The translations under genes were made by a program, and so were the position numbers. A stretch of DNA of 64,000 nucleotides from a virus, in the UHGV virus genome UHGV-0291501. One strand, 5' to 3'. The notes under the pieces were generated by a model. That model was not told where the DNA came from and ran no database searches. It was given only the letters and a program-made list of their open reading frames with translations. Each line of letters begins with the position of its first letter. Position 1 is the stretch's first letter. Shown piece by piece: positions 428 to 12,588 of this stretch.

Positions 428-1207
428 TCAGCTTATGAATTTGAACTTTTTAGAATACAGCAAGTAGTGAACTTCATCCTGATTTGTTGTGTAGATGTAT
501 GCTGCTGGGTAGTTATTAAAGAACACCCCTTCATATCTTCCAAACGGGTCAACTGGGAACATTTCACTGTTACACATACCCATCTCACTAACCAGAGGGT
601 AACTAACCTCAACCTTGCCATCAACAAGCTGATAGAGGGTAACTTGATTAGTCTTCCCGTCACTTAGCACGACACCATCATAGAATTGTGGTGCTGAGGT
701 AGCATACTTAGGGGTAACTACACTTGCCATTGCTTCATCATAGACGTAGAGGTACACATCAACGTTATACATAACACTATTAATGAGGCTTTTCACAGCT
801 TGTGCATCTAAACCGCCTATACCTGCCCCAATCATGGGTAAACCAATCTTACGAATGTTGTGCAGCCAGCAAAATTTACGGAGTTTTTCTAGTGACTCCA
901 CTAAGTATCGGTATGATGCACACTTCCCAACATCCAACTGTGTATATAGGTTAAAAATGTAACCATACTCCGTTCGAGCATGTGACACCTCACCAACCAT
1001 CTGGTATCCGATATCATGAGCACTGTAGCCAAACTTTTTATGGAATTTCCGGTCAGCTTCTTCAGCTTTTGGGAAAATCTTAGCAATTTTTTGAGCGATT
1101 CCAGCACCCATGAGGTTACGACAGTTGCAACCATGAGCAATTAACTCAATATCTGTGTTTTTGAAGGCAGCCAGTAAGTTACCTTTTACAACTTTTACAA
1201 TACCCAT
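428..1207 (-). CDS. Macro-domain protein (TARG1/OARD1/DarG-like N-terminal domain) with uncharacterised C-terminal extension
   Basis: N-terminal motif HGCNCRNLMGAGIAQKIAK resembles the TARG1-type macro signature; remaining ~110 aa unrecognised. Confidence 0.5.
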   Translation of the reverse strand: MGIVKVVKGNLLAAFKNTDIELIAHGCNCRNLMGAGIAQKIAKIFPKAEEADRKFHKKFGYSAHDIGYQMVGEVSHARTEYGYIFNLYTQLDVGKCASYRYLVESLEKLRKFCWLHNIRKIGLPMIGAGIGGLDAQAVKSLINSVMYNVDVYLYVYDEAMASVVTPKYATSAPQFYDGVVLSDGKTNQVTLYQLVDGKVEVSYPLVSEMGMCNSEMFPVDPFGRYEGVFFNNYPAAYIYTTNQDEVHYLLYSKKFKFIS

Positions 1208-4578: not shown

Positions 4579-5688
4579 TTAGATTTCACGTTTACGTTGA
4601 GAGATGAGTTCACCAGCGGTGCCAACGATGACATGCAAAGCTTCAGTCTTACCGTCCCATGCTTCCAGCACTTTACGTTGATTATCAACGATTGCTGCAA
4701 CTTCATAACGAGAGGAACGCATCTTCATATCGTTGTAATCAGTTGGAACAGATACAACATCTCGTGGATGTACGCGAACCTTCAGGATTGTATCACCTGA
4801 GAAGCAACGAACATAATCCCAAGCACCAACATGAAGACCTTGAGAGCAAGTTACGTTACGGTTATTATCAACCATCCAACGTGGCATTTCTACAATGTTA
4901 CCCAAATCATTAGGCACTTTGTAGGTGTGAGAGTCAACCAGCTTGCCTTCACGAGTAGAGACTTTCTTCCAACCAATGATGTAGCCTTCTTCATCAATCT
5001 CAACATCAAGGTGAGATACAAATCCCCAAAGTTGTTCTACAGAATCTTTAGATGGGTTTTCCATCAGTTTTTCGAAGAACATTACAAGTCGTTCAAAACC
5101 TTTATCGCCAGTTTTCATCATGTGAAGAATACGGTCAACCAGAGTAGAACGCATCTCAACAGCACCGTAGAATAGCTTGTCACCTTTGATTGTGATAGCG
5201 CCCTGAGTGAAGTTTTCGATAGACTTACGAATGTTCATCAGTTCAAAGGCTTTCTTAAACTCACCTTTCACAACATGAACTACAATCTCTTGATAGTTCG
5301 GATGAGTAGATTCAACAATTTCAGACTCTGAACCGTAAGTCATAATTACAGAGTCACCAGTAATCATGTACTCAATCTTGTCATCTTTCTGCATAGCTTC
5401 ATGCAGTTTATTTACTGGAGCTTTCTGTACAGCCTCTTTAACAACCTTTTCAACTGGTTTGCCAGTTTTCTTTTTAACTGACTTAGCAACTTGCTTTAGG
5501 GTCTTCTTAGCTGGCTTAGAAGTTGCCTTTTTCTTACCTTTTAAGGTTGCTTCATGACGCTCTACAGCACGACCAACTGAACGGGTTGAAGTATTGAACT
5601 TCTGTGCGATAGCTGTTTTAGTCAGCTTACCTTCTTTAACCAGTTCGTAAATTTCTGCGTCAATCTGTGCTTTAGTTTTAGTAGTCAT
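4579..5688 (-). CDS. rIIB: rIIB-like protein
   Basis: Immediately downstream of the rIIA-like gene as in T4; central region (LFYGAVEMRSTLVDRIL ... ENPSKD ... EEGYIIGWKKV) resembles rIIB as I recall it; lysine-rich N-terminal linker. Confidence 0.45.
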   Translation of the reverse strand: MTTKTKAQIDAEIYELVKEGKLTKTAIAQKFNTSTRSVGRAVERHEATLKGKKKATSKPAKKTLKQVAKSVKKKTGKPVEKVVKEAVQKAPVNKLHEAMQKDDKIEYMITGDSVIMTYGSESEIVESTHPNYQEIVVHVVKGEFKKAFELMNIRKSIENFTQGAITIKGDKLFYGAVEMRSTLVDRILHMMKTGDKGFERLVMFFEKLMENPSKDSVEQLWGFVSHLDVEIDEEGYIIGWKKVSTREGKLVDSHTYKVPNDLGNIVEMPRWMVDNNRNVTCSQGLHVGAWDYVRCFSGDTILKVRVHPRDVVSVPTDYNDMKMRSSRYEVAAIVDNQRKVLEAWDGKTEALHVIVGTAGELISQRKREI

Positions 5689-5767
5689 CTTATTACTCTC
5701 TCTTGTTAGTTAATAAATCATTTTGTAATGCTATTCTAAGGGGCTTTAAAGCCCCTTGTCAAACACT

Positions 5768-8134
5768 TTAATCGTAAATTGTAGTCCCTTCTGGAACACA
5801 CTTCACATCAAAGCCTAAGAACTTACTCACTTCGATGGGTGACACTTTATTCCAATCTAAATGAGAAAGCAAGAAGTTTTCTTGTTTTCTTTTTGAAAGG
5901 TAGTTTGTCACCTTAATGACCATACGGTCACCAGCTTTCTTAATTTTCTTGTACAGCTTTGTATCATTGTCAAGGCAGTCTTTCAAAGTTTGCAACCTAC
6001 TAATAGTGTAAGTATATGCAAACGGTGCAGCAACGTATTGGATTTTACCAAACATTGCCTCTACAGCATCTTCATTGCCTTCTAAGAAGATAGTTTTGTT
6101 TGTATCCCGTGAATAACAATAGCCACGAGAAATCTTCCTGTTATTGAACGTAAAGTTTCTGGCAATAATCCAACTGCTTGTAAGGTCGAGGACACCATTC
6201 ATATAGATACGTGTCATATACCTGTTATGATTAATCCAATGAACATCAGTTAAGCTGTCGTTCAAGAGCTTCTCATCTACTTCAATCCAGTCTTCTGGTA
6301 TCTTTTTCCAATTTGCTTTTCGGAAAACATAGACTGTCTTACCTGTAACATTAGCAACTGACTTAGCTACATCTTCTGGAGATGAGCAAAAACATTCGCC
6401 ATCAACTGTGTCACCAACTGCCTTAATGTAAAGCTGAGGTTCTTCAATTGTATCAAAGTCCTCTGAAACCTCTTTATAGGAAGCTACACCTTCTGCTGGA
6501 ACAGCTTTCCAGAGTTTTACAACACCTCTTACAGCTTCTTTACGCTGATAATGGTGTTCCTTATCAGACATCTTCACAATCTTTAACAAGCTTTTATCAA
6601 GTTTGTGCAGATTGATTAGGTCGTCTAACTCTTTTTCAGTCGAGAATACAAAGACAATACCATTGTATCTGTGAAACAGACTAGACTCACTGGCATAGTC
6701 TCGACATGCACCACGCAAGATTTGATTGCGTCCTACAGTCTTCTCAGTACCGTTTTTATTGCGACGGTCATTTATAACAAACAAAAACTGTTCAATTTGG
6801 CTTTTACGCATTGCGCCAAAGATATTGAACATACTTGCCTCTTGAGTGTAGGAAAGCGATGTTGCACGAATCTTACTCTCTAAAGAGTTGAACTTGACAT
6901 AAGCAACTGGGTCATAAAGATAATCTACTTTAGGTATATTGTTCCCGTTCCTATCAACCTTAATATTACCTTTACCGTCACGTTCATAAATGACTGAGCC
7001 GTCTTCTGCGTAGATAATTCCACGACGAATGTTTAGTAATTCTTCTTCCAGAGAATCAAGCTTAACACCACCCCACTCTAGCTTTGGACACACAGCATTA
7101 AACATCTCTCGTGAGTTCAAACGTAACTCAGCATAAGCCTGTGCAGCATCCATGAGTGTGGGCTGATTGTTAATCTTTTTGATAACATCCTTTGTAATGG
7201 CTTCAGTTATCTTTTTGGTAGCCTCAATGATGACATTTTTTGTCGTATCATTCATCTGCAATGCTTCACGAGAAGCTGCAATAGCAACTGAACCAATAGG
7301 CATGTAGATGTTTACAAGGTCTACGCTCCTACGGAAAAATTCTGGCAATACTTTGAAGAAATCATCACCAAGTAATGCTTCCATGTTAACAGGGTAGGCA
7401 ATGTTACCCATCACCACATTAAACTCTGTCCTGTTATCACTAGAACGCCAGCTGTGCTTATGAATCATGGCATCATAAACACCTTCTTCACGGGCAATGA
7501 CGTTCATATCTGCTAATACATCGTCGTACTCAATATTACTTTCTGGTTTTACAGTGAAGTATGAGTACACATTCCCAGCTTCTTCAAAGAACTTTGAGAT
7601 ACGGTGGTCAGCAACCGCCACACGTACAGCTAAACCATTAGGTTCTTTTGTTGGGTTAGTTGTCAGCTTAGTTACTTGAGGGATACCATTCTCAAGATAA
7701 ACAGAGTACTTATTAACAACACCATCAACATAGCTAGATACTGTGAATGACTGAGCAATTGCAAATGGTGACTTTGAGCCGATACCCATTGCACCAATGT
7801 AGTCATTAGAGTCATTCTTCGTAGAAGCTCCATAGTTTAGGTACAAACTCATAACTTTATCATGAGTCAATCCAGTTCCAAAATCACGAACTTCGAAGTA
7901 AGGCTCAAAACGAGTAGGTAAATGCACATGGAACGGGATGTTCTCTTTTCCAGCCTCTTTCTGAGCATCTACTGCGTTACATGACAGTTCACGAATCACT
8001 GCCCTTTCTTTAAAGGTATATACACCAGAACTCAAAAGGCTGAACATTTCAGGTGTCATTGTAATCTGTGCTTGAGACGTCTCTAAAGAAGTTGAACTCT
8101 TAATCACTTCTGCGTGGTCGTTTACCATGCGCAT
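5768..8134 (-). CDS. rIIA: rIIA-like protein with N-terminal GHKL-type ATPase domain
   Basis: 788 aa; N-box-like CNAVDA, G-box-like RDFGTGL and AMGIGSKS; followed by rIIB-like gene. Confidence 0.55.
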   Translation of the reverse strand: MRMVNDHAEVIKSSTSLETSQAQITMTPEMFSLLSSGVYTFKERAVIRELSCNAVDAQKEAGKENIPFHVHLPTRFEPYFEVRDFGTGLTHDKVMSLYLNYGASTKNDSNDYIGAMGIGSKSPFAIAQSFTVSSYVDGVVNKYSVYLENGIPQVTKLTTNPTKEPNGLAVRVAVADHRISKFFEEAGNVYSYFTVKPESNIEYDDVLADMNVIAREEGVYDAMIHKHSWRSSDNRTEFNVVMGNIAYPVNMEALLGDDFFKVLPEFFRRSVDLVNIYMPIGSVAIAASREALQMNDTTKNVIIEATKKITEAITKDVIKKINNQPTLMDAAQAYAELRLNSREMFNAVCPKLEWGGVKLDSLEEELLNIRRGIIYAEDGSVIYERDGKGNIKVDRNGNNIPKVDYLYDPVAYVKFNSLESKIRATSLSYTQEASMFNIFGAMRKSQIEQFLFVINDRRNKNGTEKTVGRNQILRGACRDYASESSLFHRYNGIVFVFSTEKELDDLINLHKLDKSLLKIVKMSDKEHHYQRKEAVRGVVKLWKAVPAEGVASYKEVSEDFDTIEEPQLYIKAVGDTVDGECFCSSPEDVAKSVANVTGKTVYVFRKANWKKIPEDWIEVDEKLLNDSLTDVHWINHNRYMTRIYMNGVLDLTSSWIIARNFTFNNRKISRGYCYSRDTNKTIFLEGNEDAVEAMFGKIQYVAAPFAYTYTISRLQTLKDCLDNDTKLYKKIKKAGDRMVIKVTNYLSKRKQENFLLSHLDWNKVSPIEVSKFLGFDVKCVPEGTTIYD

Positions 8135-8162
8135 AATACTTTCCTCTTAGTTTACTGTTAAA

Positions 8163-8339
8163 TTACTTGTTAAACATTTTACCAGAACCACCACACATAG
8201 GGCAACAACCTGCTCTTGTATAACCTTCCCCATTACAGTAGTCACATTTTTTGTGCTCTGCATAGTACTTACAAAGAAGGTAAACAAACACTGCTACGCC
8301 ACCAAGTGACAGTAAAATTTCTATCCAATATGCTTGCAT
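8163..8339 (-). CDS. Unannotated small membrane protein with DnaJ-type CxxCxGxG zinc-finger repeats (58 aa)
   Basis: Below the track's 60-aa cutoff. ATG at 8339 with RBS gaggtgag; translation MQAYWIEILLSLGGVAVFVYLLCKYYAEHKKCDYCNGEGYTRAGCCPMCGGSGKMFNK; overlaps the upstream stop by 19 nt. Confidence 0.35.
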   Translation of the reverse strand: MQAYWIEILLSLGGVAVFVYLLCKYYAEHKKCDYCNGEGYTRAGCCPMCGGSGKMFNK

Positions 8340-8656
8340 GACTCACCTCTCATATTCTTGTAAAGGATAAAGCTTCTGTCATGGACGATACTTGTAGATA
8401 CTGCAAAGTTACTTTCAAGCATCTGTTTATTTGGATTGTAGAAGCTTTCTTTAAACTCGTCAAGTGCAAATTGGTGATTGTCTGGAAGACCTTTTACACA
8501 GACCTTTATTGTGATTGCTGCTGCAATCTTACCAGTCAGTTCTTCTTTAGCTGCTACTAAAATTTTGTTAAGGAACTTATGACCATTTTCAGGTTTCTTG
8601 ATGTTCTCCCAACGTTCCTCTAAGACGATGTTGATGTTCATCTCTTTGATTTTCAT
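8321..8656 (-). CDS. Hypothetical protein
   Basis: 111-aa ORF directly after a terminator; no motif. Confidence 0.45.
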   Translation of the reverse strand: MKIKEMNINIVLEERWENIKKPENGHKFLNKILVAAKEELTGKIAAAITIKVCVKGLPDNHQFALDEFKESFYNPNKQMLESNFAVSTSIVHDRSFILYKNMRGESCKHIG

Positions 8657-8667
8657 AATCTTCTCCA

Positions 8668-8694
8668 GAAATTAAAAAGGCTCCCGTAGGAGCC
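8668..8694 (-). terminator. Rho-independent terminator
   Basis: Hairpin ggctcc-cgta-ggagcc with minus-strand U5 tract; downstream of NAMPT-like gene. Confidence 0.6.
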
Positions 8695-8709
8695 TCTTAT
8701 CATATACTT

Positions 8710-10491
8710 TTAAAGCTGCTTGTCAATATTATTTCGAATATCACCAAGAGTTGTGTAGCCGAACTGCTCAGAGTCACTAAAGACTAGACGTAAAGCACAA
8801 GCTGGATGTTCAAGTGCATCTGCAAAGCTCTGGAACCCATAGCCATCTACAGCTTTCAGATTTTCACCATCCCACATAGGTGCTACACCACCAAAAGCAG
8901 ACTTCTTAACACCACTATCTGTTTTAGGGTCTTTTGCAAGCATAATCTCTTTACCACCAATGCTTGCAAGGGTTGCTTTGACAGCAAATGCAAAGGTGTC
9001 ACGAGTCATGTACTGGTAAGTGTAAGAACCTACACCAAACACTACGTTAGAGCTTGCAAAACCCATTTCATACAAACGCTTCAGTATTTCATTTGCACGT
9101 TCCAACGTGATAGAGTCGCCATAAATAAGTCCAATATGCTCATCCAGTACCTTAAAACCTTTAGAGTTAATAGTTCCCCCAAAGATGTTATACAGTGTCT
9201 TGATAGCTCCATCAATCTCAGCTACAGGACGTGTTACAACGTTTGCAGAACCAACCATATAAGCATTTTTCAACATCACTGTATCAGCAACTTCAAAGTC
9301 TTCTCTGTCAACAACCATCTCGTAGCCTTCTGACAGTAGCCATCCAGCAATACCATAGTTGATGTTCTCAAGCTTCATGTTCAGAACAGCATTCAACATT
9401 GTGTCACTGGCTTCCAGCTTGCTTAGGTGCTCGTAATAAGCCTTCTTAGCACATTCTAAGTGGATTGCTTTATAACCTGTGACAATATGTACAGGGTCTC
9501 CAGAGTCAGGGCGAATTACCAGTTTGCCATCACGTTCCATAATTTCTTTACGAAGTGCTGGTAAGATTTCTGACACAGTTCTCCAGAAGTTATAAGTATC
9601 TGAAACAATGCTTGCAATACCTGTTGGGTAAGTTTCTGTTAAGAAACGACGGAAGGTTTGTAACTCACCTTTAAAGCGTCTTTCTTCTTCAATCAACTCA
9701 TTACCACCTTCCCAAGCAATGTTTGCACACATTACAGAGTGCTCAGTGGCTGGTACAGAACTACCAATATCAGAGATTGGGTAGGACTGTCCATAGATTC
9801 GTTTAGCCGTGTATACAGCAGGGAAGCTATCAGTCCCTTTAAAGCTGGTTAAGTGACCTACAGCGTTAAATGCGTCATCAGTAAAGCCGGACATACCACG
9901 CATAGCAAAATCATGGCACTGATAAGGTAAATGTAAGTCATTGTCACAAGTAAGGTCAGCCCACTTCTTACAGATGCGTTTGTAATGCAATGCAATAGTT
10001 GCAATGGTGCAAGCCTTCCAAATTTCAGCAGAGAAAGCATCTTCCAGATAACCTGCTACCCAATGAAAACCTGAAACAGTGTTCTGAAAGACAATCATCG
10101 GGACACGCATTGGAACAACTGTGCCTTCTTCTACAGCGTATACTTCAACTGGTAGATAACCTAAGTCGTGAAGTGCTTCCCAATGCTCTCGACCGATAGC
10201 ATCTTTACCCAGAACACCATTCATGACTTCTAAGATTTCATCAATGGCTTCTTTTTTATCACGTTCAAAGAAAGTGGCATTCCAGTGGTCTATCAAGTAA
10301 TCTTTAACAAAACGTTGAATACCAAAAGCCACTACACCGTCAATTGCTAAGGGGCTGTTAAACCATTTGTCGCTACGTGGTGTCAGATTGAACATCAAGT
10401 ACTCTGTTGCACTAGGGTACTGGTAAACATGACCAGATTTGTAAGCATCTGCGTTTAAACCTGCTGGTACTGCATAAAGTGATTTAGTCAT
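8710..10491 (-). CDS. Nicotinamide phosphoribosyltransferase family protein (NadV-like; may be the NARP1 enzyme Namat)
   Basis: 593 aa; N-terminal DAYKSGHVYQYP matches the NAMPT signature; adjacent to a Prs-like gene. Confidence 0.8.
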   Translation of the reverse strand: MTKSLYAVPAGLNADAYKSGHVYQYPSATEYLMFNLTPRSDKWFNSPLAIDGVVAFGIQRFVKDYLIDHWNATFFERDKKEAIDEILEVMNGVLGKDAIGREHWEALHDLGYLPVEVYAVEEGTVVPMRVPMIVFQNTVSGFHWVAGYLEDAFSAEIWKACTIATIALHYKRICKKWADLTCDNDLHLPYQCHDFAMRGMSGFTDDAFNAVGHLTSFKGTDSFPAVYTAKRIYGQSYPISDIGSSVPATEHSVMCANIAWEGGNELIEEERRFKGELQTFRRFLTETYPTGIASIVSDTYNFWRTVSEILPALRKEIMERDGKLVIRPDSGDPVHIVTGYKAIHLECAKKAYYEHLSKLEASDTMLNAVLNMKLENINYGIAGWLLSEGYEMVVDREDFEVADTVMLKNAYMVGSANVVTRPVAEIDGAIKTLYNIFGGTINSKGFKVLDEHIGLIYGDSITLERANEILKRLYEMGFASSNVVFGVGSYTYQYMTRDTFAFAVKATLASIGGKEIMLAKDPKTDSGVKKSAFGGVAPMWDGENLKAVDGYGFQSFADALEHPACALRLVFSDSEQFGYTTLGDIRNNIDKQL

Positions 10492-10502
10492 CTTTTAATC
10501 TC

Positions 10503-10527
10503 TCTCAAAATGGGGCTTTCAAGCCCC
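10503..10527 (-). terminator. Rho-independent terminator (weak U tract)
   Basis: Hairpin ggggct-ttca-agcccc followed on minus strand by AUUUUGAGA. Confidence 0.45.
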
Positions 10528-10536
10528 TATAAACTT

Positions 10537-11433
10537 TCAATCAAGGTTTGCTACAGTAACTTGACCATAATGTGTTAAGCCACGGTCTTTAGCTTCGCCT
10601 AAAGAGTTTGTAGTGTAAATATGGTCGATACCGTTGTCAAGAAGGTTTTCAACACCTTTAGAGAAGATACCATGTGTTACATAAAGCTCTACACGTTTTG
10701 CACCTGCTTCACGTAGGTGTTTAGCTGCCTCTACGAAGGTTCGACCACCATCACAGATATCATCAAGAATCATGACGGTTTTATCGGTCAAATCAACATC
10801 GTCAAGGATTCGCATACCAGTGATTTCTCCAGTCTTAAGATTGCGCACCTTAGACATTGTGATATATGGTTTATCCACCTCTTTAGCAGTCTCTGCAATC
10901 TTCTTAGCAGCACCTGCATCTGGGGCTACTAAGTAATCAATCAGTGGGTCATTTGCGTAGTGAACTGCAATCTCCTTTTGAGGAATACTCTGGAAGCAGT
11001 TAAACAGGTTATCTGGAACGTAACTGTGAGGGTCAACTGCACAGACTGCACCAAATCCCATTGCATTTACCTGTTTAGCAAAAACCTTTAAAGCTGCTGC
11101 GTCGCCTTTAAACATGTGACGGTCATAACGTGCATTTGGTAAGTAGTAAAAGATGACAGTCTTTAAAGCATAATCATGAGGAATTAAATCATCAATTGCT
11201 TCTTTAGCAAGTGCCACAGCAAACAATGTATCCTTATCATAACCTTTTACAATCATAATCACATTGTTGATGGATGATGCTGCATAAGCAGTGAAATCAA
11301 CAAACTCTGGCGAAAAGTGTCCACCAATCTCACCAGAAGGAAATTGGATGATGTTAAACTCTTCTTCATGAGTTCCTTTAGTTGGTGAATGAACTGTAAC
11401 ACGGATAGATGTTTTCATAGTTTTCTCTCTCAA
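10537..11433 (-). CDS. Ribose-phosphate pyrophosphokinase family protein (Prs-like; may be the NARP1 enzyme Adps)
   Basis: 298 aa; PRPP-binding-type motif MILDDICDGGRT; directly upstream of the NAMPT-like gene in the same operon. Confidence 0.75.
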   Translation of the reverse strand: MREKTMKTSIRVTVHSPTKGTHEEEFNIIQFPSGEIGGHFSPEFVDFTAYAASSINNVIMIVKGYDKDTLFAVALAKEAIDDLIPHDYALKTVIFYYLPNARYDRHMFKGDAAALKVFAKQVNAMGFGAVCAVDPHSYVPDNLFNCFQSIPQKEIAVHYANDPLIDYLVAPDAGAAKKIAETAKEVDKPYITMSKVRNLKTGEITGMRILDDVDLTDKTVMILDDICDGGRTFVEAAKHLREAGAKRVELYVTHGIFSKGVENLLDNGIDHIYTTNSLGEAKDRGLTHYGQVTVANLD

Positions 11434-11708
11434 TCAAAAGTTACGTTTGTTACTGCCATTGCAGATTTGCATTTTGCAGGGTCTACAACGTGATAAAGTA
11501 CACTACAGTTACCTGTGCTGTCTGGTACAGGTTTAACCCATTGTTGCTTGACAGTTGGTTCGCCTAAGTCTTTGTAAGAACCATCTGTAAAGTTGTTTAC
11601 CATCTCAAGTGCAATTGGCTCTGGAACATGACCACGTATCATGTACATTTCACAACCATTACCTCCTTCACTGACTAATGGTAAAATCTCCCACTTTTCT
11701 TTAGCCAT
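11430..11708 (-). CDS. Hypothetical protein
   Basis: 92-aa ORF; ATGA overlap with Prs-like gene. Confidence 0.45.
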   Translation of the reverse strand: MAKEKWEILPLVSEGGNGCEMYMIRGHVPEPIALEMVNNFTDGSYKDLGEPTVKQQWVKPVPDSTGNCSVLYHVVDPAKCKSAMAVTNVTFD

Positions 11709-12216
11709 TATAAGTTGCCCTATAAACTGTCTCGAACTTCAACAGGAGAGATATTGCCAAATCTGTATAGTTGTTGTCAAGCACATCTGGCATATTATTT
11801 TTGATATATTTCTCTTGCTCTTCATAGGTCATCTTAGGGATACTTAGGAGGCTATCTCCTTGCTTCTGGTTATCAGTTTTAGTTTGGATAAACCAGTTCG
11901 CACAGTGATGTTCACCACCTTTTGTAACAGGTTTGTGGTGGCCTAGTGTAAATGTTTGCTTACCCGTATACCTGCAAAGATTGTTCAGTGTTGCAATGGT
12001 GTTCTTCACAACACACCATTCATACAGGTTATCTATTGTGTAGTGTGGGTAATAACGGACAAGTGCTCTTTCACGGAAGTTATCACGATTCCAAAGAACC
12101 ATGTGATTAGAATTTGAAGGGTCATATTTGTGGGAGTCTATAAACTCTTGACGCTCATCAAAGCTGAGTCTTAGAACTGACATTGCAACCGAACGTTTCA
12201 GGTTTGACAGATACAT
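11701..12216 (-). CDS. Hypothetical protein (weak HNH-like His cluster)
   Basis: 171 aa; LGHHKPVTKGGEHHCANW vaguely resembles an HNH core but lacks the Cys ligands. Confidence 0.4.
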   Translation of the reverse strand: MYLSNLKRSVAMSVLRLSFDERQEFIDSHKYDPSNSNHMVLWNRDNFRERALVRYYPHYTIDNLYEWCVVKNTIATLNNLCRYTGKQTFTLGHHKPVTKGGEHHCANWFIQTKTDNQKQGDSLLSIPKMTYEEQEKYIKNNMPDVLDNNYTDLAISLLLKFETVYRATYNG

Positions 12217-12267
12217 TTTACCTCCAAAATAAAAAGGGAACCTTTACAGTCCCCTTATAGTATCTGT

Positions 12268-12588
12268 TTACTGAGCTACTTTCAAGATGCTTGTGAATGA
12301 AATATCACTCTCATCCATAAACTCTTTTGCTTCTCCAGTAACTTTCACAAAGTTATCTAGGCAGATAATCTTCTTATCTTTCTTGCTGTAGGTTAGCTTA
12401 ACCTTTTCAATATCTTTCTTAGAGCTTTTCTCTTCATTAAAGAGTTTTACAGCTTCTTTGAATGGGAGGTATGAGCCATCATCATCGCTAATAAAACCTG
12501 TACCACAATAGTAGAAGTTGTATTCTTTAGCCATAAACTGGCACAGTACGAAAATCTGTAATTTACGAGTGTTATAAACTTTGCTCAT
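12268..12588 (-). CDS. Hypothetical protein
   Basis: 106-aa ORF; no motif. Confidence 0.45.
   Translation of the reverse strand: MSKVYNTRKLQIFVLCQFMAKEYNFYYCGTGFISDDDGSYLPFKEAVKLFNEEKSSKKDIEKVKLTYSKKDKKIICLDNFVKVTGEAKEFMDESDISFTSILKVAQ

What the first reader, a model, noticed from the sequence alone, without database searches (positions are those of the whole stretch)
8710..11433. Adjacent NAMPT-like and PRPP-synthetase-like genes: candidate NARP1 NAD+ reconstitution counter-defence pair
A NAMPT-family gene (DAYKSGHVYQYP signature) sits directly beside a Prs-family gene (DDICDGGRT). In the published NARP1 pathway as I recall it, a Prs homologue (Adps) pyrophosphorylates ADP-ribose and a NAMPT homologue (Namat) joins it to nicotinamide to rebuild NAD+, countering NAD-depleting defences such as Thoeris, DSR, SIR2-HerA and TIR-based systems. 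Alternatively the pair could be a classical PRPP/NMN salvage route. No NMNAT homologue is recognisable in this window.
Basis: partly seen in the sequence, partly recalled or inferred. Interest (0 to 1): 0.75.

Follow-up and report, generated by a model that had tools for sequence, protein, structure and literature searches.

The report
Known phage NAD+ rebuilding operon (NARP1)

Summary
Two adjacent, co-oriented minus-strand genes encode a Prs-family protein (10537..11418, 293 aa; the mechanical ORF runs to a TTG at 11433) and a NAMPT-family protein (8710..10491, 593 aa).

The window is a Felixounavirus genome, 99% identical here to phage KhF2. The NAMPT-like protein is 99% identical (585/593) to Bas63 gp80. 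The Prs-like protein is 80% identical to Bas63 gp79. Those are the two genes whose deletion defined NARP1.

Sequence features that mark the published enzymes are all present:
- the catalytic Lys of Adps (K190)
- the catalytic Arg and His of Namat (R327, H251)
- the Namat-specific adenine clamp motif, GSYTYQYMTRD
- the Bas63-type clamp loop

No NMNAT is encoded among 59 scanned non-structural ORFs, so NARP2 and classical salvage are disfavoured. KhF2's identical Adps allele is already listed as NARP1 in the original paper's supplement. Verdict: already known, low interest.

Four side observations may deserve follow-up:
- a mosaic N-terminal half of Adps
- an Ounavirinae-specific folded 80-aa insertion domain in Namat with no structural match
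- a hypervariable Macro-domain gene 7.5 kb away, homologous to the Adpp phosphatase of extended NARP1 operons
- a surrounding anti-defence gene cluster

The parts
10537..11418 (-). adps: ADP-ribose pyrophosphokinase (ADPR-PP synthetase), a Prs-family enzyme of 293 aa. The mechanical ORF extends to a TTG at 11433.
   Evidence: Family hits: PF00156/PF14572 and phrog_619. It is 80% identical to Bas63 gp79. K190 and R192 align with the catalytic Lys of SpbetaL1 Adps (K162) and with human PRS1 K194/R196; H131 aligns with PRS1 H130. It passes only the Prs subfamily model TIGR01251 (120 vs cutoff 113 bits) and fails every Prs equivalog cutoff. The same allele in KhF2 is listed as Namat-associated in the Osterman supplement.
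10890..11420 (-). Mosaic segment: the 5' ~530 nt of adps (N-terminal ~177 aa), sharply diverged from the Bas63 allele.
   Evidence: Sliding nucleotide identity to Bas63 falls to 62-79% here, against 90-99% on both sides. Amino-acid identity is 120/177 in the N-terminal part against 113/116 in the C-terminal part. Identity is bimodal across phage records: 155 at >=90% and 93 at 60-80%.
8710..10491 (-). namat: nicotinamide ADP-ribose transferase, a NAMPT-family enzyme of 593 aa.
   Evidence: Family hits: PF04095, PF18127 and phrog_448. It is 99% identical to Bas63 gp80. The best PDB sequence and fold match is SpbetaL1 Namat 9w5w/9w5x (E 5e-128; TM-score on the target 0.95). The AF2 model has pLDDT 92.8.
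8998..9030 (-). Selectivity-clamp helix motif of Namat (SCH), GSYTYQYMTRD, residues 488-498.
   Evidence: It matches the published Namat consensus GS-X-phi-X-phi-X-phi-TRD, with aromatic residues at the adenine-stacking positions 3 and 7.
10339..10383 (-). Selectivity-clamp loop of Namat (SCL), TPR-S-D-K42-W43..., residues 37-51.
   Evidence: The third loop residue is Lys and is followed by an aromatic residue, which is the Bas63-type arrangement described in PMC12774641.
9211..9459 (-). Lineage-specific insertion domain in Namat (residues ~345-427), absent from SpbetaL1 Namat and from NAMPT.
10512..10527 (-). Intercistronic RNA hairpin GGGGCU-UGAA-AGCCCC, followed by AUUUUG, between adps and namat.
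   Evidence: Read from the sequence. The fold gives -13.9 kcal/mol, z -2.9. It is identical in Bas63. Its function was not tested.
8675..8698 (-). Terminator-like hairpin plus T-run immediately after namat; the likely 3' end of the transcription unit.
   Evidence: Consensus scan.
11430..11708 (-). Small upstream ORF of 92 aa (homologue of Bas63 gp78). Its stop codon lies 11 nt before the adps ATG. Function unknown; membership of the pathway is not shown.
   Evidence: phrog_4726, no Pfam or NCBIfam hit. Homologues are found only in Ounavirinae (231 records).
428..1207 (-). Unlinked Macro-domain protein of 259 aa, listed as a possible accessory (Adpp-like ADPR-1''-phosphate phosphatase). This is not established.
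   Evidence: Family hits: PF01661 (28.9 bits vs cutoff 22) and phrog_335 'phosphatase'. It is 28-30% identical over the whole macro domain to the phosphatase sitting between adps and namat in Vibrio phage Pontus. It also matches Poa1p, TARG1 and DarG macro domains.

Best explanation
This is the NARP1 (NAD+ reconstitution pathway 1) operon of a Felixounavirus.

Proposed mechanism. When an NAD-depleting defence (SIR2, TIR or SEFIR type) cleaves NAD+ into ADP-ribose and nicotinamide, Adps uses ATP to pyrophosphorylate the free ribose of ADPR, giving ADPR-pyrophosphate. Namat then displaces the pyrophosphate with nicotinamide and regenerates NAD+ directly. No NMN intermediate and no host salvage enzymes are needed.

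Shown here: the gene pair, its orthology to the characterised genes, conservation of the catalytic and substrate-selectivity residues, and the absence of an NMNAT.

Inferred from published work on orthologues (Bas63 in vivo; SpbetaL1 and DyoEdafos in vitro): the chemistry and the anti-defence phenotype.
For: Genome identity: the window is a Felixounavirus, 99.1% identical to KhF2 over 8000-12500.

Orthology: Namat is 585/593 identical to Bas63 gp80, and Adps is 233/293 identical to Bas63 gp79.

Published phenotype and chemistry of the orthologues:
- Bas63 delta79-80 loses the ability to overcome SIR2-HerA.
- The ADPR-PP ion (m/z 720.010) appears only with the wild-type phage plus the defence system.
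- An independent knockout screen gives a 1e4-1e6 drop in plating efficiency for delta-g79 or delta-g80 on Sir2-HerA.

Adps residues: K190 corresponds to the mutated essential K162 of SpbetaL1 Adps.

Namat residues: D15, Y17, F195, R198, D221, A248, H251, R327 and D329 correspond to the nicotinamide/ribose-binding and catalytic residues of SpbetaL1 Namat, including R306.

Selectivity signature: the Namat-specific motif GSYTYQYMTRD and the Lys-aromatic clamp loop are present.

Structure: the best fold match is the Namat crystal structure.

Prs models: Adps fails all Prs equivalog cutoffs.

NMNAT: no NMNAT or Nudix family was found in 59 scanned ORFs.

Prior listing: KhF2's identical Adps allele and its Namat are catalogued as a NARP1 pair in the original supplement.
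Against: - No assay has been done on this exact phage.
- The window's Adps allele differs from the tested Bas63 allele in 32% of its N-terminal 177 residues. No Adps structure or published specificity determinants exist against which to check ADPR versus ribose-5-phosphate preference.
- The Bas63 enzymes themselves were not purified; the in vitro chemistry comes from SpbetaL1 homologues that are 31-43% identical.
- Namat can also make NMN from PRPP in vitro, so a secondary salvage role is not excluded.
Confidence: 0.94

Rival explanations
1. Classical salvage. The Prs-like enzyme makes PRPP from ribose-5-phosphate, the NAMPT-like enzyme makes NMN, and host NadR/PncC finish NAD+ synthesis. The role would be general metabolic support rather than counter-defence.
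For: Pfam, PHROG and NCBIfam all name the proteins Prs and nicotinamide/nicotinate phosphoribosyltransferase. Namat passes the NF006629 equivalog cutoff (469 vs 405 bits). Purified Namat can form NMN from PRPP in vitro.
Against: - In Bas63 the effect is independent of pncC and nadR, and ADPR-PP accumulates.
- SpbetaL1 Adps gave no product in the Prs-type control reaction but converted ADPR.
- Namat makes only NAD+ when both donors are offered.
- The window protein carries the adenine clamp motif that NAMPTs lack.
- Adps reaches no Prs equivalog cutoff.
Confidence: 0.03
2. NARP2-type pathway: NAMPT plus an NMNAT encoded elsewhere in the genome.
For: NARP2 phages also carry a NAMPT homologue. 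Only 64 kb of an approximately 88-kb genome is in the window.
Against: - No NMNAT or Nudix family was found in the scanned ORFs, nor in the annotation of Bas63 and KhF2 over the regions read.
- The NAMPT homologue is Adps-associated and belongs to the Namat clade.
- The original study found no phage with both pathways.
Confidence: 0.01
3. The pair is NARP1, but the diverged N-terminal half of this Adps allele changes regulation, partner or substrate range relative to the tested Bas63 allele. One possibility is escape from a host factor that senses or inhibits Adps.
For: There is a sharp recombination-like block of 62-79% nucleotide identity inside an otherwise 90-99% identical region. Felixounaviruses carry two allele classes. 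Felix O1 carries a further mosaic of the two.
Against: All motifs invariant among validated Adps proteins are kept in both alleles: FPxGE, PxxRxDR, PHS, K190/R192 and the DD...G.T loop. Mosaicism of this kind is commonplace in phage genomes.
Confidence: 0.1

Closest known systems
NARP1 of Escherichia phage JohannRWettstein (Bas63), genes 79-80 (Osterman et al. 2024, bioRxiv 10.1101/2024.02.11.579819)
   Same: Same genus, same gene order and neighbours (gp77-like, gp78-like, adps, namat..., rIIA, rIIB). Namat is 99% identical and has the same 593-aa length with the same insertion. The C-terminal domain of Adps is 97% identical. The intercistronic hairpin is the same.
   Different: The N-terminal 177 aa of Adps are only 68% identical, so this is a different allele class. 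The window lacks the small gene bas63_0081 that follows namat in Bas63.
NARP1 of Bacillus phage SPbetaL1 (biochemically characterised Adps and Namat; Namat crystal structures 9W5W and 9W5X)
   Same: Two-gene adps-namat operon. The catalytic Lys of Adps is conserved, as are the catalytic core of Namat and the SCH clamp motif. TM-score on the target is 0.95.
   Different: Adps is about 31-35% identical and Namat about 42-43% identical. The clamp loop uses Lys-Trp instead of Arg40. The window Namat has an ~11-aa insertion and an ~80-aa insertion that SPbetaL1 Namat lacks.
NARP1-AP (Adps-Adpp-Namat) of Thalassavirus vibriophages such as Gary and Pontus (Osterman et al. 2026, bioRxiv 10.64898/2026.01.28.702374)
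   Same: Adps and Namat homologues are present. The window also encodes a Macro-domain protein homologous to the operon-embedded phosphatase.
   Different: In the window the Macro gene is not in the operon. It lies about 7.5 kb and about 11 genes downstream and carries a ~100-aa C-terminal extension. Its activity is unknown.
NARP2 of Vibrio phage KVP40 (NadV/Nampt plus NatV/Nmnat) and cellular NAMPT/NadV plus Prs
   Same: Same protein superfamilies (type II phosphoribosyltransferase barrel; Prs fold), and the same nicotinamide-binding and catalytic residues.
   Different: There is no Nmnat. Namat carries the adenine-recognition clamp. Adps scores far below the Prs equivalog thresholds. The substrates are ADPR and ADPR-PP rather than ribose-5-phosphate and PRPP; this last point is shown for orthologues, not tested here.

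Membership tests
NARP1 (Adps + Namat) | A Prs-family gene of the Adps clade (not a housekeeping Prs) | tested here: met
   It is 80% identical to Bas63 Adps, and 29-38% identical to the in-vitro-validated SPbetaL1 and DyoEdafos Adps and to the Pontus (NARP1-AP-type) Adps. It passes only the subfamily model TIGR01251 and fails all Prs equivalogs, for example 102.9 vs 296 bits. The same allele in KhF2 sits in the published Adps table. No tree was built here.
NARP1 (Adps + Namat) | The catalytic lysine of Adps (SPbetaL1 K162, whose mutation abolishes the pathway) | tested here: met
   K190 of the 293-aa protein aligns with K162. The column is invariant in the four Adps sequences aligned.
NARP1 (Adps + Namat) | A NAMPT-family gene with an intact catalytic core (SPbetaL1 R306, D215, F189 and the catalytic His) | tested here: met
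   R327, D221, F195 and H251 align with these residues. They are invariant in a 32-sequence alignment.
NARP1 (Adps + Namat) | The Namat selectivity-clamp helix motif GS-X-phi-X-phi-X-phi-TRD with aromatic X residues | tested here: met
   GSYTYQYMTRD at residues 488-498.
NARP1 (Adps + Namat) | A Namat selectivity-clamp loop that provides a stacking residue (Arg at position 3, or Lys/Tyr followed by the stacking residue) | tested here: met
   TPR-S-D-K42-W43, identical to Bas63 Namat, which is cited as the Lys-type example. Stacking itself was not modelled here.
NARP1 (Adps + Namat) | The two genes are adjacent and co-oriented (97% of Adps genes have Namat in the vicinity) | tested here: met
   Same strand, adps first, 45-nt spacer, with terminator-like hairpins only outside the unit.
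NARP1 (Adps + Namat) | Enzymology: ADPR + ATP gives ADPR-PP; ADPR-PP + nicotinamide gives NAD+ | not testable with these tools
   Shown for SPbetaL1 and DyoEdafos proteins in vitro and by metabolomics in Bas63 infection. Not shown for this phage.
NARP1 (Adps + Namat) | Counter-defence phenotype against NAD+-depleting systems | not testable with these tools
   Shown for the Bas63 orthologues in two independent studies.
NARP2 (Nampt + Nmnat) | An Nmnat (NMN adenylyltransferase, often fused to Nudix) encoded in the same genome | tested here: not met
   No PF01467 or Nudix hit among 59 non-structural ORFs of the window, and none annotated in the Bas63 and KhF2 stretches read. The part of the genome outside the window was not scanned directly.
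NARP1-AP (NARP1 with associated phosphatase Adpp) | A Macro-domain ADPR-1''-phosphate phosphatase within two genes of the NARP1 operon | tested here: not met
   The genes flanking the operon (92, 171, 111 and 58 aa) have no Macro hit. A Macro-domain homologue exists, but it lies at 428-1207, about 11 genes away.
Canonical ribose-phosphate pyrophosphokinase (Prs) | Scores at equivalog level against Prs models, with a standard ribose-5-phosphate loop DxxDTxGT | tested here: not met
   All NCBIfam Prs equivalog cutoffs are missed by a wide margin. The loop reads DDICDGGRT where human PRS1 has DDMADTCGT. What this difference means functionally is inference.

The most novel reading that the evidence does not exclude
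Felixounaviruses may run the extended pathway NARP1-AP 'in trans'. The unlinked, hypervariable Macro-domain protein (window 428-1207; homologous to the Adpp phosphatase embedded in vibriophage NARP1 operons) would convert ADPR-1''-phosphate, the product of aRES-type RES NADases, into ADPR for Adps. The published survey searched only within two genes of NARP1, so on this reading it would have undercounted phosphatase-equipped NARP1 phages. A second open point is the orphan, confidently folded ~80-aa insertion domain of Ounavirinae Namat, whose role is unknown.
Probability: 0.2. Interest if true: 0.4.

Novelty: already known. Interest (0 to 1): 0.15.

Why it matters
As an annotation result it matters modestly. 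Public records, and the Pfam, PHROG and NCBIfam names, still call these genes 'ribose-phosphate pyrophosphokinase' and 'nicotinamide phosphoribosyltransferase'. That suggests PRPP/NMN salvage, whereas the evidence supports a counter-defence pathway that rebuilds NAD+ from ADPR.

For phage therapy or host-range prediction, the operon predicts resistance of this phage to SIR2-, TIR- and SEFIR-based NAD+ depletion. It does not by itself predict resistance to aRES or to Metis-type cleavage.

It does not open a new question. The side observations (the Adps allele mosaic, the Namat insertion domain and the unlinked Macro gene) are the only parts that could lead to new work.

Tried and rejected
- **Classical salvage and NARP2.** I looked for NMNAT, Nudix and RyR domains by Pfam-scanning 59 non-structural ORFs. 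None was found apart from one Macro domain.
- **Immediate neighbours as known NARP1 accessories (Macro Adpp, RyDEP).** The 92-, 171-, 111- and 58-aa genes gave no Pfam, NCBIfam or PADLOC hits. The 92-aa protein occurs only in Ounavirinae, so co-occurrence outside the lineage could not be used.
- **Adps substrate-specificity residues.** No Adps structure is in the PDB; the best hits are archaeal and human Prs. The ADPR versus ribose-5-phosphate preference of this allele therefore cannot be read from the sequence.
- **The intercistronic hairpin as a terminator.** It has only four U residues after the stem and was not picked up by the terminator scan. I left it as unexplained.
- **Finding Bas63.** Two accession guesses missed before the right record turned up. 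This has no bearing on the result.
Full report
**Observation**

The minus strand of the window carries two consecutive ORFs at the reported place.
- 10537..11433 encodes 298 aa from a TTG, and it contains DDICDGGRT.

The first protein matches NAPRTase/NAMPT families (PF04095, E 6.8e-35; PF18127) and PHROG 448 (E 3.6e-202). The second matches Pribosyltran and Pribosyl_synth (PF00156, PF14572) and PHROG 619 (E 2.5e-97).

The TTG at 11433 overlaps the stop of the upstream gene. An ATG at 11418 with a GAGAGAG ribosome-binding site gives the 293-aa product annotated in related phages, so I take 10537..11418 as the gene.

**What the window is**

Megablast of 8000-12500 finds 261 phage records, almost all Felix-O1-like myoviruses (Ounavirinae, Felixounavirus). 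The best is Enterobacteria phage KhF2, at 99.1% over the whole query. The surrounding genes fit that genus: rIIA, rIIB, polynucleotide kinase, NrdG, NrdD, NrdAB and others.

**Link to the experimental system**

NARP1 was discovered in BASEL phage Bas63 (JohannRWettstein), also a Felixounavirus. The published findings are:
- Deleting its genes 79-80 made it sensitive to SIR2-HerA.
- NAD+ fell further in cells infected with the mutant.
- The effect did not need host pncC or nadR.
- ADPR-pyrophosphate (m/z 720.010) appeared only with wild-type phage plus the defence system.
- Purified homologues from SPbetaL1 converted ADPR plus ATP to ADPR-PP, and ADPR-PP plus nicotinamide to NAD+.

I located Bas63 (MZ501086) and compared the genes.
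- Window Namat is 585/593 identical to gp80.
- Window Adps is 233/293 identical to gp79.
- Gene order and neighbours are collinear, with 91-94% nucleotide identity over 9.5 kb.

An independent knockout screen of Bas63 reports a 1e4-1e6 drop in plating on Sir2-HerA for either single deletion. It reports weaker effects against retron Ec86 and hhe.

The supplementary tables of the original paper list KhF2 itself. Its Adps sequence begins MKTSIRVTVHSPTKG..., the same allele as in the window, and is marked as Namat-associated. Its Namat is marked as Adps-associated. The system in this window is therefore already catalogued.

**Residue-level checks**

*Adps.* The Lys whose mutation kills SPbetaL1 Adps (K162) aligns with K190. 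K190 and R192 also align with the catalytic K194 and R196 of human PRS1, and H131 aligns with H130.

*Namat.* I used the 9W5X numbering of the 2026 structural paper.
- The nicotinamide and ribose-phosphate ligands D13, Y15, F189, R192, D215, A242, R306 and D308 correspond to D15, Y17, F195, R198, D221, A248, R327 and D329.
- The catalytic His corresponds to H251.

That paper defines what separates Namat from NAMPT as an adenine 'selectivity clamp'. It consists of a helix motif, GS-X-phi-X-phi-X-phi-TRD, with aromatic X residues, and a variable loop that supplies a further stacking residue.
- The window has GSYTYQYMTRD at residues 488-498.
- Its loop reads TPR-S-D-K42-W43, the Lys-type arrangement for which Bas63 is the cited example.

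An AlphaFold2 model (pLDDT 92.8) matches the Namat crystal structure best (TM-score on the target 0.95), ahead of Haemophilus ducreyi NadV and mammalian NAMPT.

Adps reaches only the broad Prs subfamily model of NCBIfam (120 vs 113 bits) and misses every Prs equivalog threshold.

**Rivals**

*Classical PRPP/NMN salvage* is what the database names imply. It is contradicted by the Bas63 genetics and metabolomics, by the in vitro preference of Namat for ADPR-PP, and by the clamp motif.

*NARP2* needs an NMN adenylyltransferase. Pfam scans of 59 non-structural ORFs of the window found none. The original study found no phage with both pathways.

I put NARP1 at about 0.94. The remaining doubt is that nobody has assayed this exact Adps allele.

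**How this copy differs from the tested one**

*(a) The Adps gene is a mosaic.* The first ~530 nt (window ~11420-10890) are only 62-79% identical to Bas63, while the flanks are 90-99% identical. At the protein level the figures are 120/177 against 113/116. Across phage records the identities are bimodal, with 155 at >=90% and 93 at 60-80%. Felix O1 shows yet another combination. All motifs invariant among validated Adps proteins are retained. I read this as allele exchange, not loss of function.

*(b) The small gene bas63_0081 is absent from the window*.

**Features not discussed in the papers I read**

The Felixounavirus Namat is about 100 aa longer than SPbetaL1 Namat, because of an ~11-aa insertion and an ~80-aa insertion (residues ~345-427).
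- The large insertion is detectable only in Ounavirinae-type phages, 254 records.
- It sits at a site where Namat homologues carry inserts of 0 to ~90 aa.
- It is predicted with high confidence as a compact alpha/beta domain, both in context and alone.
- Bas63 Namat has it and works in vivo, so it is compatible with function. Its role is unknown.

A 6-bp hairpin with a UGAA loop lies between the two genes and is conserved in Bas63.

**Surroundings**

Terminator-like hairpins at 12256-12234 and 8698-8675 bracket four genes: a 171-aa protein, a 92-aa protein, adps and namat.
- The 171-aa protein is the homologue of Bas63 gp77, reported to counter retron Ec67.
- rIIA and rIIB, just downstream, are reported to counter QatABCD.

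The operon therefore sits in an anti-defence neighbourhood.

Two accessory genes are known from other NARP1 operons: the Macro-domain phosphatase Adpp, which lets NARP1 cope with the RES-type NADase aRES, and the RyR-domain glycosidase RyDEP. Neither is adjacent here.

**The unlinked Macro-domain protein**

The window does encode a Macro-domain protein at 428-1207 (PF01661 above threshold; PHROG 335 'phosphatase').
- Its macro domain aligns end to end, at 28-30% identity, with the phosphatase that sits between adps and namat in Vibrio phage Pontus. Pontus is in the same genus as Gary, the phage used to define Adpp.
- It also matches yeast Poa1p, TARG1 and DarG macro domains.
- The position aligned with the catalytic Lys of TARG1 and DarG is Gln in both the window protein and the Pontus protein. 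The identity of that Lys (K84 in TARG1) is from my memory, not checked here.
- The gene is only 41% identical to its Bas63 counterpart, on an otherwise >90% identical backbone.
- The published survey searched only within two genes of NARP1, so this gene would not have been counted.
- Homologues are also common in phages without NARP1, such as T4. A dedicated link to NARP1 is therefore far from shown. I give the 'Adpp in trans' reading about 0.2.

**Verdict**

The system is a textbook member of a pathway published in 2024, in the very phage genus where it was found, and a 99%-identical genome is already listed as a carrier.
- Novelty: already known.
- Interest: low (0.15). The remaining value lies in the side observations listed above.

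Noticed in passing
window 428-1207 (-): A 259-aa Macro-domain protein (PF01661, phrog_335 'phosphatase') with a ~100-aa C-terminal extension. It is homologous to the Adpp phosphatase embedded in vibriophage NARP1-AP operons, and also to Poa1p, TARG1 and DarG macro domains. It is only 41% identical to bas63_0095 although the genome backbone is >90% identical, and this allele is seen at >=95% identity in only 13 phage records. It could feed ADPR to NARP1, or it could reverse DarT-type DNA ADP-ribosylation.
   Followed up: partly
[not shown]
   Followed up: partly
window ~10890-11420 (-), 5' part of adps: A sharp mosaic block: 62-79% nucleotide identity to Bas63, against 90-99% in the flanks. Felixounaviruses carry two Adps allele classes, and Felix O1 shows a third combination.
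   Followed up: partly
window 10512-10527 (-): A conserved intercistronic hairpin, GGGGCU-UGAA-AGCCCC followed by AUUUUG, between adps and namat, identical in Bas63. It could be a weak terminator or attenuator, or an mRNA-stability element.
   Followed up: partly
window 4579-12216 (-): An anti-defence neighbourhood. The 171-aa gene (11701-12216) is the homologue of Bas63 gp77, reported to counter retron Ec67. rIIA (5768-8134) and the next gene downstream, 4579-5688 (placed as rIIB by collinearity with Bas63/KhF2), are homologues of Bas63 g84/g85, reported to counter QatABCD. The 171-aa, 92-aa, adps and namat genes lie between two terminator-like hairpins, at 12256-12234 and 8698-8675.
   Followed up: partly
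window 11430-11708 (-): A 92-aa ORF (phrog_4726, homologue of Bas63 gp78) that ends 11 nt before the adps start codon. It has no family hit and is found only in Ounavirinae, always at this position in the records looked at. Function unknown.
   Followed up: partly
window 8654-8657 junction, versus L005 6012-6357: The 346-bp segment carrying bas63_0081 (a 114-aa hypothetical protein directly after namat in Bas63) is absent from the window.
   Followed up: no
proteins P0065-P0120: Chromosomal ~496-aa homologues in Klebsiella, Cronobacter, Kosakonia, Phytobacter and others (46-48% identical to the window Namat) carry the Namat-type clamp motif GS[YF]TYQYNTRD. This is consistent with the bacterial NARP1 homologues reported in PMC12774641. 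Their gene neighbourhoods were not examined.
   Followed up: no
one ORF in the window 428-25867 set (not located): One ORF among the 33 scanned hits PRA-PH / MazG-like pyrophosphohydrolase (PF01503, E 1.1e-05). The summary output did not say which ORF it was.
   Followed up: no
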